A stretch of 64,000 nt of DNA from Gemmatimonadaceae bacterium. GTDB lineage: Bacteria; Gemmatimonadota; Gemmatimonadetes; Gemmatimonadales; Gemmatimonadaceae. Location of the stretch: NCBI GenBank assembly GCA_040901985.1, contig JBBDYC010000007.1, positions 1 through 64,000 of the forward strand, written 5' to 3'. A model generated the notes under the pieces. It saw only the letters and a program-made list of their open reading frames with translations. It ran no database searches and was not told where the DNA came from. The position numbers and the translations under genes are program-made. This document shows positions 2,099-64,000 of this stretch, piece after piece (the stretch's first letter is position 1; the number at the start of each line of letters is the position of its first letter).

Positions 2099-4021
2099 CT
2101 AGAGCGACGTCGCCGGCGGCACGCTTACCGGCGTCGGCGTGATGGCCGGGGACTCCTCCACCGGCTCCTCCCCGGGATTGATGAAGAGGTCCTTCTCGAT
2201 CTCGTACTGCGTGTCGTGGAGTTCCCGGTAGCGGCCGCCGTGGGCCATCAACTCGCGGTGCGTGCCGCGCTCGACGATCTCGCCGTGCTCGAGCACGAGG
2301 ATCTGGTCGGCGCTGCGGATCGTCGAGAGCCGGTGCGCGATCACGAAGGTCGTCCGCCCCGAGCGAAGCGCGAGGAGCGCCTCGCGGATCTGCCGTTCGC
2401 TCTCGCTGTCGAGACTCGACGTGGCCTCGTCGAGGATCAGCATCTGGGGGTCGGCGAGGATCGCCCGCGCGATCGCCACGCGCTGCCGCTGGCCGCCGGA
2501 GAGCCGCACCCCACGCTCGCCGACGATCGTGTCGTAGCCGTTGGGGAAGCCGGCGATGAACTCCTCGCAGTTGGCCACCTGCGCCGCCGCCTTCACCTGC
2601 GCCAGTGATGCGCCGGGCTTTGAGAACGCGATGTTCTCGGCCACGGTGCCGTCGAACAGGAAGTTGTCCTGCAGCACCACGCCGAGCGTCGAGCGGTAGT
2701 CGCGCAGGCGCAGCGCGGCGAGGTCCTGGCCGCCAATCGTGATGCGGCCGCGCTGCGGCCGGTTGAAGGCGAGGATCAGCGAGATCAGCGTGCTCTTGCC
2801 CGACCCGCTCGACCCGACGAGCGCCGTCGTCGTGCCCGTGGGGGCGGTGAAGGAAATGCCCTTGAGGACCGGCACGCCCGGCCGGTACTCGAACCACACG
2901 TCCTCGAAGGCCACGTCCCAGGTGGCGCCGTCCAACCGGTCGCGCAGTTGGTCGTCCTCGTCCTCGGTCGGCGTCTCGAAGATCTCGCGGATGCGGTCGA
3001 GGCCGGCAAAGGCCTCGGTGACCTGCGTGCCGATGGCGGCCATCTGCACGACCGGGAACGAGACAAGGCCGACGAAGAAGATGTAGGAGACGAGGTCGCC
3101 GAGCGTCATCGTGCCGGCGACGACGGCGCGGCCGCCGACGGTCAGGATGAGCACCCCGACCGCGCCGATGATCACGGTCGAGATTGCGCCGATGGCGCTC
3201 GTCCCGGTGATCGTGGACGCGATGTTGCGGAAGAGGCGGTGCGCGCCGCGCGTGAAGACGATCTCCTCGCGCTTCTCGGCGGTATAGACCTTCACCACGC
3301 GCGCGCCGCCCATCGCCTGGCCGAGCCGTCCGCTCACTTCGGCCTGGATCTTGGACCGCTCGCGGAAGATCGGCCGCAGCTTCACGAACGCGTAGGCCAT
3401 CACGCCGCCGAAGACGGCGAGGAAGCCCAGCGTGATCGCGGTGAGGAACCAGTTGAGCCAGAACAGGTAGCCGAGCGCCAGCGTCGCGGTGAGCAACCCG
3501 CCGACGAGCTGCACGATCCCCGTGCCAATCAGGTTGCGGATGCCCTCGGCGTCGTTCATCACGCGGTTGATCAGCACGCCGCTCTGCGTCGAGTCGAAGA
3601 ACGAGATCGGCAGGCGCAGCACGCGCGCCTGGACGCGGCGGCGGAGGTCGGTGATGGCCCGCTGCGCCGCCACCGAGATGACCTGCGAGAGGGCGAACGA
3701 GCTCGCCGCCTGCAGCACCGTCGCCGTGCCGGCGGCGATCGCGATCGGCATCAGCAGCTCCAGCCGCCGGTTGGTCAGCACCTCGTCAATGATCCACTTG
3801 ACGCTGCCGGGGAGGACGAGGCCGGCGAGGCGGTTGACGACCATCAGCACGAGTCCGATCGCCAACGTCCGGCGGTGCTGCCACATCAACTTGCGCGTCT
3901 CCGACCACGCGGCCCGGTAGTTGGTCGGCCGCTTCGCGGCCTTCTCGCCGTTCTCGCCCTTCTCGCCGTTCTTGCCCTTCTCGCCCTTCTTGCCTTTCTC
4001 CTTCCGCGCGGGGGCGCTCAC
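2099..4021 (-). CDS. ABC exporter, fused permease/ATPase (MsbA-like)
   Basis: TM domain plus GSSGSGKST, LSGGQRQR, ILDEATS and AHRLST. Confidence 0.95.
   Translation of the reverse strand: MSAPARKEKGKKGEKGKNGEKGENGEKAAKRPTNYRAAWSETRKLMWQHRRTLAIGLVLMVVNRLAGLVLPGSVKWIIDEVLTNRRLELLMPIAIAAGTATVLQAASSFALSQVISVAAQRAITDLRRRVQARVLRLPISFFDSTQSGVLINRVMNDAEGIRNLIGTGIVQLVGGLLTATLALGYLFWLNWFLTAITLGFLAVFGGVMAYAFVKLRPIFRERSKIQAEVSGRLGQAMGGARVVKVYTAEKREEIVFTRGAHRLFRNIASTITGTSAIGAISTVIIGAVGVLILTVGGRAVVAGTMTLGDLVSYIFFVGLVSFPVVQMAAIGTQVTEAFAGLDRIREIFETPTEDEDDQLRDRLDGATWDVAFEDVWFEYRPGVPVLKGISFTAPTGTTTALVGSSGSGKSTLISLILAFNRPQRGRITIGGQDLAALRLRDYRSTLGVVLQDNFLFDGTVAENIAFSKPGASLAQVKAAAQVANCEEFIAGFPNGYDTIVGERGVRLSGGQRQRVAIARAILADPQMLILDEATSSLDSESERQIREALLALRSGRTTFVIAHRLSTIRSADQILVLEHGEIVERGTHRELMAHGGRYRELHDTQYEIEKDLFINPGEEPVEESPAITPTPVSVPPATSL
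3941..4003 (-). repeat. 9-bp coding tandem repeat (GEKGKNGEKGENGEK) in the ABC exporter N-terminus
   Basis: Repeated ccttctcgc/cgttctcgc/ccttcttgc units. Confidence 0.7.
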
Positions 4022-4806
4022 GCAGCACCGCCGCGCGCCGCGAGGATTGCGGCCGGGTCGTCGCTGATGATCCCGTTCACGCCCTTGGCCCAGAGTCGCC
4101 GCGCAACGATCGGGTCATTCACCGTCCAGACGTGGGTGGCGCCGCCGGCGGCGCGCATCATCGCCGCGTAGCGCCGCACCGGGACGGGAAGGATTCGTCG
4201 GTGGAACCGGGGGATGCACATTGCCTGGAATGGGAGCGCTTGTCGGGAAAGGCGTCGGCCGAATACCGCTGGAAGGTACAGCCGGGTGAGTTCAGCCGAC
4301 GCCGCGCTGACCGGGATGCCGACGTCCTGGAAGGGGCGCAGGGCGTCGTCGAGGAAGCTCCCGATCAGCACGCGGCCGGTGTCGCCGGTGCGACGGAGGA
4401 TCTCGAGTGCCGGACGCGCGACCTCCACGGTCTTGAGCTCGATGATCAACGGCAACGTTGGCGCGTCGGCGAGCGCCTCCTCGAGCGTCGGGATGCGGAC
4501 GCCGCGTCCGCGCCAGGGGAAGGTGCGGCCGCCGTCCGGGGTGAAGCACGCGCCGGCGTCGAGGGCGTGGAGCTCGGCCAGCGTTCGCGCGGACACTGCT
4601 CCCCGGCCGTCCGTGGTCCGGTCGAGCGTCGGGTCGTGCATCAGCACCGGGACGCCGTCGCGCGAGAGGTGGAGGTCAAACTCCAGCGCGTCCACGCCCT
4701 TGGCGAGTGCCTGACGCAGGGACTCGAGCGTGTTCTCGGGGGCGTGGGCGCGGTCGCCGCGGTGCCCGATGACGGGGCGTCGGGCAGGATCGAGGAGCAC
4801 GAGCAT
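4018..4806 (-). CDS. Glycerophosphodiester phosphodiesterase
   Basis: IGHRGDRAHAPENT, EFDLHLSRDG, HDPTLDRTT, WTVND, GIISDDP. Confidence 0.92.
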   Translation of the reverse strand: MLVLLDPARRPVIGHRGDRAHAPENTLESLRQALAKGVDALEFDLHLSRDGVPVLMHDPTLDRTTDGRGAVSARTLAELHALDAGACFTPDGGRTFPWRGRGVRIPTLEEALADAPTLPLIIELKTVEVARPALEILRRTGDTGRVLIGSFLDDALRPFQDVGIPVSAASAELTRLYLPAVFGRRLSRQALPFQAMCIPRFHRRILPVPVRRYAAMMRAAGGATHVWTVNDPIVARRLWAKGVNGIISDDPAAILAARGGAA

Positions 4807-63955: not shown

Positions 63956-64000
63956 ACTGGGGTCGCGCGCTGACGGCCGCCGCGTTCGGCGTACCGGTCA
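63952..64000 (+). CDS. Start of the next ccm gene (probably CcmG thioredoxin), truncated by the window edge
   Basis: ATGA overlap with the ccmF stop; MNWGRALTAAAFGVPV; identity inferred from operon position. Confidence 0.5.
   Translation, partial: MNWGRALTAAAFGVPV

What the first reader, a model, noticed from the sequence alone, without database searches (positions are those of the whole stretch)
2099..64000. Window-wide avoidance of RTCGAY (GTCGAC, ATCGAC/GTCGAT): footprint of an unusual restriction or methylation specificity
Seen: Ile-Asp is almost always ATT GAC (pilB, pilT, pilC, kynU, M24, M28, acnA, ccm) even though ATC dominates elsewhere, and Val-Asp is GTG/GTT GAC. In another frame the rare Ser codon TCA replaces TCG after G and before AT/AC (acs ccg-tca-atg and acg-tca-atg; M16 cgg-tca-acc). 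CTCGAC, TTCGAC, GTCGAG and ATCGAG are abundant, so TCGA itself is not avoided. By eye I found few exceptions (38394, 41521, 50860; ATCGAT at 17625, 18184, 45858, 47709) and may have missed some. Inference: DNA-level selection or methylation-driven mutation at a degenerate palindrome broader than SalI or ClaI, caused by a system encoded elsewhere.
Basis: partly seen in the sequence, partly recalled or inferred. Interest (0 to 1): 0.75.

Follow-up and report, generated by a model that had tools for sequence, protein, structure and literature searches.

The report
RTCGAY avoidance traced to restriction system
This bacterium has purged the six-base DNA word RTCGAY from its genes through silent codon changes, and elsewhere in its genome it carries a restriction enzyme and methylase pair of an unnamed family whose unrelated hosts mostly show the same purge, which predicts what this enzyme family cuts.

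Summary
Confirmed. Only 7 RTCGAY sites lie in 2099-64000, against 249 control words. Across the genome (a Gemmatimonadaceae assembly) codon-corrected O/E is 0.06-0.29, in all three frames. Val GTC and Ile ATC before Asp are equally suppressed (odds 0.013, 0.015), and GTG, not GTT, takes over, so this is not 5mC deamination. No C5 methylase was found.

The likely cognate system lies outside the window, at C8:58687-61393: an AccI-like endonuclease (291 aa) divergent from a gamma-class N6-adenine methylase (515 aa). Around homologous pairs in 15 other genomes, RTCGAY is 27 observed against 200 expected; in 51 metagenome loci, 36 against 190. Nine of 10 carrier genomes are low genome-wide. Predicted mark: RTCG(m6A)Y, untested.

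RTCGAY was known from a differently built m5C system of Bifidobacterium breve. Other Gemmatimonadales avoiders lack this pair (lost or unassembled), so cause versus late arrival is open. Known phenomenon, new enzyme-site link.

The parts
2099..64000 (.). Core chromosomal DNA purged of RTCGAY (7 sites against 249 control words) and of CATG (36 sites). The candidate cognate R-M genes are outside the window: G000:C8:58687-59565(-) endonuclease P0247 and C8:59846-61393(+) methylase P0123.
   Evidence: R-M pair
18184..18189 (.). surviving ATCGAT in the same gene
38394..38399 (.). the only GTCGAC in the range, in gene 38158-38700(+)
41521..41526 (.). surviving GTCGAT in gene 40703-41902(+)
45858..45863 (.). 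surviving ATCGAT in gene 44583-47894(+)
47709..47714 (.). surviving ATCGAT in gene 44583-47894(+)
50860..50865 (.). surviving GTCGAT in gene 50781-52262(-)
1..2098 (.). Contig-end stretch of lower GC (0.62) that is not purged: 4 RTCGAY sites (206, 636, 916, 1552), like the other islands of the genome

Best explanation
The depletion is self-avoidance of the site of an orthodox Type II restriction-modification system that recognises RTCGAY, and the system is encoded in this genome at C8:58687-61393. Shown: the depletion itself; its symmetry and its selection-like codon spectrum; an intact-looking divergent pair of an AccI-like endonuclease and an NPPY amino-methylase; and the co-occurrence of homologous pairs with RTCGAY depletion in unrelated hosts. 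Inferred: that the methylase writes RTCG(m6A)Y (gamma-class motif order; the adenine at position 5 by analogy with M.AccI, M.TaqI and M.BseCI, recalled); that the endonuclease cuts unmethylated RTCGAY; that occasional self-cutting gives each site a small cost (scaled selection about 4, from -ln of the odds ratio); and that synonymous changes (GTC>GTG, ATC>ATT, TCG>TCC) fixed over a long residence while recently acquired islands keep their sites.
For: Equal odds for Val (0.013, 0.010-0.016) and Ile (0.015, 0.012-0.019) fit one enzyme with R...Y degeneracy, and GTT/GTG is unchanged. Islands keep sites: 1.42 per kb in genes with GC3 under 0.75 against 0.18-0.20 above 0.90. The two R-M genes hold 0 RTCGAY against 9 control words although they are 54-58% GC. 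The endonuclease is nearest to RE_AccI clusters by features (0.95) and structure (TM 0.70). All 15 genome loci carry a methylase homolog, and 39 of 39 metagenome loci with at least 1 kb upstream carry it divergently. Flanks: RTCGAY 27 against 199.5 expected in 15 genome loci, where GTCGAC, RTCGAY and ATCGAT rank first to third of 438 palindromic motifs; 36 against 189.7 in 51 of 58 metagenome loci (7 near-duplicates dropped). Genome-wide, 9 of 10 carriers tested hold 32-263 ATCGAC+GTCGAT per Mb. The Geothrix carrier has 72 per Mb against about 450-580 in the first 22 relatives listed. In stretches chosen away from the locus, 5 of 5 carriers repeat the Val/Ile-before-Asp pattern, for example G205 GTC/GTG 0/76 and ATC/ATT 0/20 before Asp against 15/48 and 45/1 before Glu.
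Against: No methylome or cleavage data. The pair was not found in the other 54 genomes of the genus (best other hit E 8e-7) nor in other strong avoiders of the order (methylase query over 151 genomes; endonuclease profile 0 of 5, 0 of 4 with G000 as positive control). Yet seven relatives that group with G000 share low GTCGAC density, so the purge may predate this copy. One carrier (G251) is not depleted genome-wide (1294 per Mb); there the pair sits on a 6.7-kb contig. Some metagenome flanks keep sites (L289 15 against 25 control words; L272 4 against 5). In metagenome flanks GTMKAC is as low as RTCGAY (14 against 73). Intergenic DNA is less purged than a uniform cost predicts (20 sites against 66 control words in 55.8 kb). 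TCA/TCC is mildly raised before AC (OR 2.1, 1.1-4.0). Three Geothrix relatives also show partial GTC loss before Asp (16/64 against 33/42).
Confidence: 0.78

Rival explanations
1. Right site, different history. The C8 pair does recognise RTCGAY but arrived late. The purge was made by an earlier RTCGAY system in the clade's ancestor (this family or the B. breve-type m5C system), and already-purged genomes simply accept the new system more easily.
For: The pair is low-GC, in a defence island beside a HipA-type module and an HTH gene fragment, and was not found in any congener. Seven relatives on the same branch are also low in GTCGAC. Avoidance without the system is a known trace of lost systems (PMC4687349, passages).
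Against: In G000 Ile is as suppressed as Val, whereas several relatives show ATC-before-Asp restored and GTC still low (G200 ATC/ATT 14/1, GTC/GTG 7/28; G201 13/0, 12/54), as expected once pressure stops; so pressure in G000 looks continuous (inference). Low GC is a family trait: cores are 0.41-0.61 against flanks of 0.54-0.71 in the other hosts. No shared C5 methylase was found among avoiders.
Confidence: 0.13
2. The order-wide Eco57I/IIG-like methylase (P0001, C8:255054-258197, always next to a SNF2-like helicase) marks RTCGAY as an orphan, and the site is avoided where the mark is costly.
For: It is the only DNA methylase found in common among the five strongest avoiders. Its best solved relative by sequence is M.BseCI, whose site ATCGAT is recalled. 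The RTCGAY codon pattern was not seen in 4 of 4 low-GTCGAC genomes tested outside the order. Intergenic sites are relatively spared.
Against: It is present with conserved target-recognition loops in avoiders and non-avoiders alike (11 to 1087 GTCGAC per Mb). Its fold matches CamA as well as BseCI. It cannot explain the same depletion in Acidobacteriota, Verrucomicrobiota and Alphaproteobacteria records that carry the C8-type pair.
Confidence: 0.05
3. Mutational erosion: 5-methylcytosine at RT(m5C)GAY deaminates to T and drains the site.
For: ATTGAC/GTCAAT is over-represented (O/E 1.76); TCA/TCC is mildly raised before AC (OR 2.1); an m5C RTCGAY methylase exists in B. breve.
Against: GTC is replaced by GTG (a transversion). 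GTT/GTG is unchanged (OR 0.93) while control amino acids give 1.3-2.3, and ATA/ATT is unchanged. ATT rises only because Ile has no other common codon. No PF00145 match and no C5 catalytic motif in six frames.
Confidence: 0.02
4. Codon-pair or translational preference, or a base-calling artefact at modified sites.
For: Most of the signal sits in Val-Asp and Ile-Asp pairs.
Against: It holds in three frames and for both orientations of the hybrid site; Leu-Asp and Phe-Asp are unaffected. The changes preserve amino acids, which base-calling errors would not. The trait is patchy among congeners.
Confidence: 0.02

Closest known systems
Avoidance of orthodox Type II R-M sites in host genomes (Rusinov et al. 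2015, PMC4687349; passages read)
   Same: A palindromic site depleted in a genome that encodes the system, and traces in relatives that no longer encode it.
   Different: That survey found avoidance in 47.9% of actual site-genome pairs at a ratio under 0.78. Here 9 of 10 carriers tested are low and the codon odds fall about 70-fold in G000.
Bifidobacterium breve RM12 system, M.Bbr26II/Bbr26IIP and M.Bbr28III, RT(m5C)GAY (PMC5829577 passages, section 16 and supplement rows; 10.1101/2024.07.15.603628 passages)
   Same: The same recognition sequence, RTCGAY.
   Different: A 349-aa C5-cytosine methylase with a 684-aa putative endonuclease, against a 515-aa NPPY amino-methylase with a 291-aa AccI-like endonuclease here. 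The predicted mark is m6A, not m5C.
AccI system (GTMKAC, site recalled) and Pfam RE_AccI PF09545
   Same: The endonuclease is nearest to RE_AccI clusters by features and predicted structure; it pairs with an Eco57I-family N6-adenine methylase; both sites include GTCGAC.
   Different: Below the Pfam cut-off (14.3 bits against 22; 3 of 42 family members match, best E 6.9e-5). GTCTAC is not avoided in G000 (GTC in 430 of 646 Val-TAC pairs), while ATCGAC and ATCGAT are.
SalI (GTCGAC) and ClaI/BseCI (ATCGAT) systems (sites recalled)
   Same: Each site is one member of RTCGAY.
   Different: Neither covers the hybrid ATCGAC/GTCGAT, which is avoided as strongly. RE_XamI PF09572 was not found in G000 or four other avoiders.
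H. pylori M.HpyI (CATG), a conserved methylase that can lack its endonuclease (PMC10423294 passages)
   Same: Analogy for the second avoided word, CATG, and the orphan D12 methylase P0002 at C17:169904-170992.
   Different: In H. pylori CATG is the most abundant motif; here it is depleted. The CATG assignment of P0002 is unproven.

Membership tests
Orthodox Type II R-M system | Separate, adjacent endonuclease and methyltransferase genes | tested here: met
   Divergent pair in G000; methylase homolog in 15 of 15 genome loci and, divergent, in 39 of 39 metagenome loci with room
Orthodox Type II R-M system | Both reading frames intact with conserved catalytic columns | tested here: met
   No internal stops. 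The endonuclease keeps invariant K59, P61, D62, E110 and departs from highly conserved columns at 4 places, the methylase at 6; none removes NPPY
Orthodox Type II R-M system | Short palindromic recognition site | tested here: inconclusive
   RTCGAY is inferred statistically from depletion around homologs, not measured
Orthodox Type II R-M system | The methylase modifies the site and the endonuclease cleaves it when unmodified | not testable with these tools
   Needs a methylome and an in vitro digest
Gamma-class N6-adenine DNA methyltransferases | Motif order X-I, then IV (NPPY), then a C-terminal target-recognition domain | tested here: met
   Conserved GQF.TP, DP..G.G and NPPY, then the C-terminal domain, across 50 aligned methylases; Pfam Eco57I and N6_Mtase over cut-off
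AccI family (PF09545) | Score above the Pfam gathering cut-off | tested here: not met
   14.3 bits against 22
AccI family (PF09545) | AccI-like fold and features | tested here: met
   ESM Atlas: feature score 0.95 to RE_AccI clusters, TM 0.70 and 0.65 between predicted models
AccI family (PF09545) | Recognition of GTMKAC (site recalled) | tested here: not met
   GTCTAC is not avoided in G000; in genome flanks GTMKAC is 53 against 81 and RTCGAY 27 against 200. Metagenome flanks are ambiguous, GTMKAC 14 against 73
B. breve RM12-type RT(m5C)GAY system | C5-cytosine methyltransferase (PF00145) | tested here: not met
   No match in G000 (99.97% complete assembly) and no catalytic motif in six frames
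B. breve RM12-type RT(m5C)GAY system | Endonuclease of about 684 aa | tested here: not met
   The candidate is 291 aa; the B. breve protein sequence itself was not available for comparison
Conserved orphan methylase target (CcrM/Dam-like) for RTCGAY | Site bias follows a vertically conserved solitary methylase | tested here: not met
   P0001 is order-wide but avoidance ranges from none to extreme among its carriers

The most novel reading that the evidence does not exclude
P0247/P0123 represent an undescribed, cross-phylum family of Type IIP systems with RTCG(m6A)Y specificity, a second and independent route to the site known from the m5C system of B. breve, and possibly a new restriction-enzyme prototype. 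The family is costly enough to its host that nearly every long-term carrier purges the site by one to two orders of magnitude in codon odds, or can settle only in genomes already purged. The graded decay in relatives (Ile ATC recovers before Val GTC) would serve as a clock for when a system was lost, and would show that RTCGAY systems have been gained and lost repeatedly in Gemmatimonadales.
Probability: 0.5. Interest if true: 0.65.

Novelty: new variant of a known kind. Interest (0 to 1): 0.5.

Why it matters
It assigns a testable specificity to an unannotated endonuclease family (149 homologs at E <= 0.001, listed ones named hypothetical or unnamed) from genome statistics alone, and a type strain carries the pair. 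A degenerate R...Y six-cutter with an m6A partner would be a possible new reagent, and it is a transformation barrier for carriers. The purge is far deeper than the usual threshold for restriction-site avoidance, so these genomes are a good case for measuring the cost of self-restriction. The Val/Ile contrast offers a way to tell active from lost systems in uncultured genomes. The general phenomenon is long known, which caps the score.

Tried and rejected
C5 and beta-class methylases: none in G000 and none shared by avoiders (18 of 50 and 15 of 36 chosen genomes match, without pattern). Mrr: none. RE_XamI: 0 of 5. The order-wide methylase P0001: no sequence difference between avoiders and non-avoiders in the loops examined; its single-sequence fold failed (pLDDT 36) and the aligned fold (pLDDT 85) matched CamA and M.BseCI alike. 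P0002 as the RTCGAY enzyme: rejected, it was not found in G131, G125, G048, G042 or G166. The C8 pair was first set aside because it did not track avoidance inside the phylum, and was recovered only by looking at its hosts in other phyla. Distant methylase relatives (24-30% identity) sit mostly in genomes with ordinary GTCGAC density. AccI (GTMKAC) and HincII-type (GTYRAC) sites do not fit G000. No relative of the endonuclease in viral contigs or plasmids; no solved structure. Sequencing runs: one run holds the stretch letter for letter and may be the source, so it is not independent; the small-share runs gave nothing usable. The maximum-likelihood tree did not finish; FastTree was used. Literature: no paper on a Gemmatimonadales methylome or an m6A RTCGAY system. 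The RTCG hits in PMC7985491, PMC8638584 and PMC10073500 are parts of bipartite motifs (passages). The supplement of PMC11954522 could not be read and may list further RTCGAY systems. REBASE could not be searched.
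Full report
Source. The window is C7:1-64000 of G000, a 2.64-Mb, 19-contig assembly rated 99.97% complete. Named homologs of its proteins are from Gemmatimonadaceae. Genes were called with my own hexamer-scoring script (2307 genes, 89% coding), so starts and small genes are approximate.

Positions 2099-64000 contain 7 RTCGAY sites, exactly those listed, against 249 control words CTCGAY/RTCGAG. 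GTCGAC is the most depleted hexamer in the window and in the genome. Against a null that keeps every amino acid and the codon usage given the next base (1858 genes with GC3 of at least 0.85), O/E is 0.06 for GTCGAC, 0.18 for ATCGAC, 0.16 for GTCGAT and 0.29 for ATCGAT, and 0.80-1.39 for the other twelve NTCGAN words. The three frames give 0.11, 0.19 and 0.18. Low-GC islands keep the word (16-24 per 10 kb at C9:270-320 kb against a median of 2).

In 1704 core genes the odds of GTC before Asp relative to before Glu are 0.013 (0.010-0.016), and of ATC 0.015 (0.012-0.019). Equal odds argue for one recognition event with A or G at the first position rather than two separate systems. The freed share goes to GTG; GTT/GTG is unchanged (0.93, 0.68-1.28), as is ATA/ATT, so C>T deamination is not the driver. 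A small excess of TCA over TCC before AC (2.1, 1.1-4.0) is the only result that points the other way. A uniform rise of all mutation rates at the site cannot be excluded by these ratios (inference). GTCTAC and GTCAAC are not avoided.

A second word. CATG is avoided as strongly where codons are free: His is CAT before G in 35 of 5351 cases, and C/G before ATG is 0.032 against 0.56 before ATC. A solitary D12-class methylase (P0002, C17:169904-170992) is the candidate. It matches in 36 of 55 genomes of the genus, is mostly syntenic and has no adjacent endonuclease in the close orthologs examined. Avoidance among carriers runs from extreme (G189, 1 against 155 expected) to none (G167), so the link is suggestive only. 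Its likeness to M.NlaIII is recalled, not tested.

Distribution in relatives. GTCGAC density is patchy. In the genus, 9 of 55 genomes have 92-205 per Mb and the other 46 have 283 or more. On a FastTree of the order-wide methylase (58 of 60 rows; only 12 congeners included, chosen by density), G000 and seven of the low genomes form one branch, support 88; unsampled non-avoiders could fall inside it. The full Val-plus-Ile pattern recurs on separate branches in three families: G131, G048, G125, G042, G053, G050, G090. Other genomes show only the Val half (G200, G201, G081, G037, G041). Because ATT>ATC is a GC-favoured transition and GTG>GTC a neutral transversion, I read these as decaying relics (inference). 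Strong avoidance of other palindromes is common in the phylum (GAGCTC in G131, CAGCTG in G069 and G049, CTGCAG in G090).

Search for the cause. G000 has no PF00145, PF01555 or Mrr match. It has several Eco57I/N6 methylases. The 1047-aa P0001 is single-copy across the order beside a SNF2-like helicase, but it is alike in avoiders and non-avoiders. The remaining candidate is a divergent pair on C8: a 291-aa protein with no Pfam family over cut-off (P0247, 58687-59565, minus strand) and a 515-aa NPPY methylase (P0123, 59846-61393, plus strand), in an island with a HipA-type module and an AIPR gene. The two genes hold no RTCGAY against 9 control words. P0247 has 149 homologs, the listed ones unnamed or hypothetical; its nearest clusters by features and by predicted structure are RE_AccI, and 3 of 42 aligned members match PF09545.

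The decisive comparison. The endonuclease alignment found 15 loci in other genomes (record titles: Acidobacteriota, Alphaproteobacteria, Verrucomicrobiota, Saccharibacteria, Rhodanobacteraceae) and 58 in metagenomes. All 15 genome loci carry the methylase homolog (38-48% identity), as do 39 of 39 metagenome loci with at least 1 kb upstream, always divergent. In the flanks, RTCGAY is 27 against 199.5 expected over 186 kb (genomes) and 36 against 189.7 over 176 kb (51 metagenome loci after dropping 7 near-duplicates). GTCGAC and RTCGAY rank first and second among more than 430 palindromic motifs in both sets, and only the four R...Y cells of the NTCGAN table are low. The depletion is genome-wide: 9 of the 10 carrier genomes counted have 32-263 ATCGAC+GTCGAT per Mb (G000: 203). 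The exception is G251 at 1294, where the pair is on a 6.7-kb contig. The Geothrix carrier has 72 per Mb against about 450-580 in the first 22 relatives listed, which I did not test one by one for the pair. Stretches chosen away from the locus in 5 of 5 carriers repeat the codon pattern of G000. G064 keeps a 49%-identical methylase without the endonuclease and shows Ile restored and Val mildly low in a 10-kb sample, which fits loss of the nuclease, on small numbers.

Mechanism. Most likely a Type IIP system: P0123 methylates the adenine of RTCGAY on both strands, P0247 cuts unmethylated sites, and the small chance of cutting one's own chromosome selects against each site (scaled strength about 4). 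The site assignment is statistical; the chemistry and the cleavage are inferred. What remains open is history. No congener or other Gemmatimonadales avoider tested carries the pair; these are mostly fragmented assemblies that may miss low-GC islands, or they have lost it. Intergenic DNA is less purged than genes (20 sites against 66 controls, with a similar trend), which a uniform cost does not explain; some of those sites may be constrained.

Comparison with what is known. Restriction-site avoidance, and its persistence after loss, are established (PMC4687349, passages). RTCGAY is known as an m5C motif of B. breve, from a 349-aa C5 methylase with a 684-aa putative endonuclease (PMC5829577, passages, section 16, supplement rows; 10.1101/2024.07.15.603628, passages; PMC12592239, one passage). 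The system here works like those but is not a member: different methylase class and different nuclease. It resembles AccI but falls below the Pfam cut-off and does not fit GTMKAC in G000. I found no paper on an m6A RTCGAY system or a Gemmatimonadales methylome in the searches; two marine Gemmatimonadetes genomes showed no motifs (PMC8919816, passages; restated in 10.64898/2026.06.24.734251, passages). REBASE and the supplement of PMC11954522 could not be seen, and either may already hold such a system. The scan's own notes had nothing on this word or protein.

Verdict. A real, strong, genome-wide signal with a named candidate cause: a new variant of a known kind. Interest 0.5.

Noticed in passing
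whole genome; candidate gene G000:C17:169904-170992(-), L010:5904-6992: CATG is avoided as strongly as RTCGAY. A solitary D12-class adenine methylase (P0002) matches in 36 of 55 congeners, with CATG avoidance from extreme (G189) to none among carriers; no cognate endonuclease was seen next to it.
   Followed up: partly
G000:C8:253558-258197(-), L009:3558-8197: A 1047-aa IIG-like methylase with no conserved nuclease residues visible in its N-terminal domain, plus a 499-aa SNF2-like helicase, form a conserved single-copy pair across the order (three families) with only weak hits in most other orders. Target and role unknown; it may be a domesticated defence system or a core epigenetic marker.
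   Followed up: partly
G200, G201, G081, G037, G041, G010 (L181, L184-L185, L076-L077, L070-L071, L191, L186-L187): GTC before Asp stays low while ATC before Asp is normal: a possible clock for lost RTCGAY systems, or true GTCGAC-only systems.
   Followed up: partly
G131 (L074-L075, L218-L220), G069 (L206-L207), G090 (L072-L073), G113 (L208-L209): Other near-complete palindrome purges in the phylum: GAGCTC 2 against 56 expected, CAGCTG 0 against 15, CTGCAG 2 against 17, CGATCG 2 against 14; cognate enzymes not looked for.
   Followed up: no
G000:C9:268000-321000 (L011, L001): A 53-kb low-GC island with an Eco57I-like methylase and IIG enzyme pair, an 895-aa N6 methylase and other defence-like genes; it keeps RTCGAY (108 sites) and CATG (129), so it is a recent arrival.
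   Followed up: partly
G000:C3:96075-98987, C7:106695-110081, C11:88674-91466: Three long IIG-type enzymes (the C7 and C11 ones match MmeI domains); specificities unknown.
   Followed up: no
window 1421-1858: Two small genes at the low-GC contig end look like a HicA/HicB-type toxin-antitoxin pair (recalled resemblance, not scanned).
   Followed up: no
G048:L048 (G064:C50:7445-8884): Locus L048 of genome G064 holds a 49%-identical homolog of the C8 methylase at host-like GC (0.73) with no endonuclease beside it: an apparent orphaned remnant.
   Followed up: partly
G086:C1 (L190, L213, L214): This contig is 47% GC in a family of 62-74% GC genomes and my gene caller found nothing in it; possibly misassigned. 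Left out of the codon tests.
   Followed up: no
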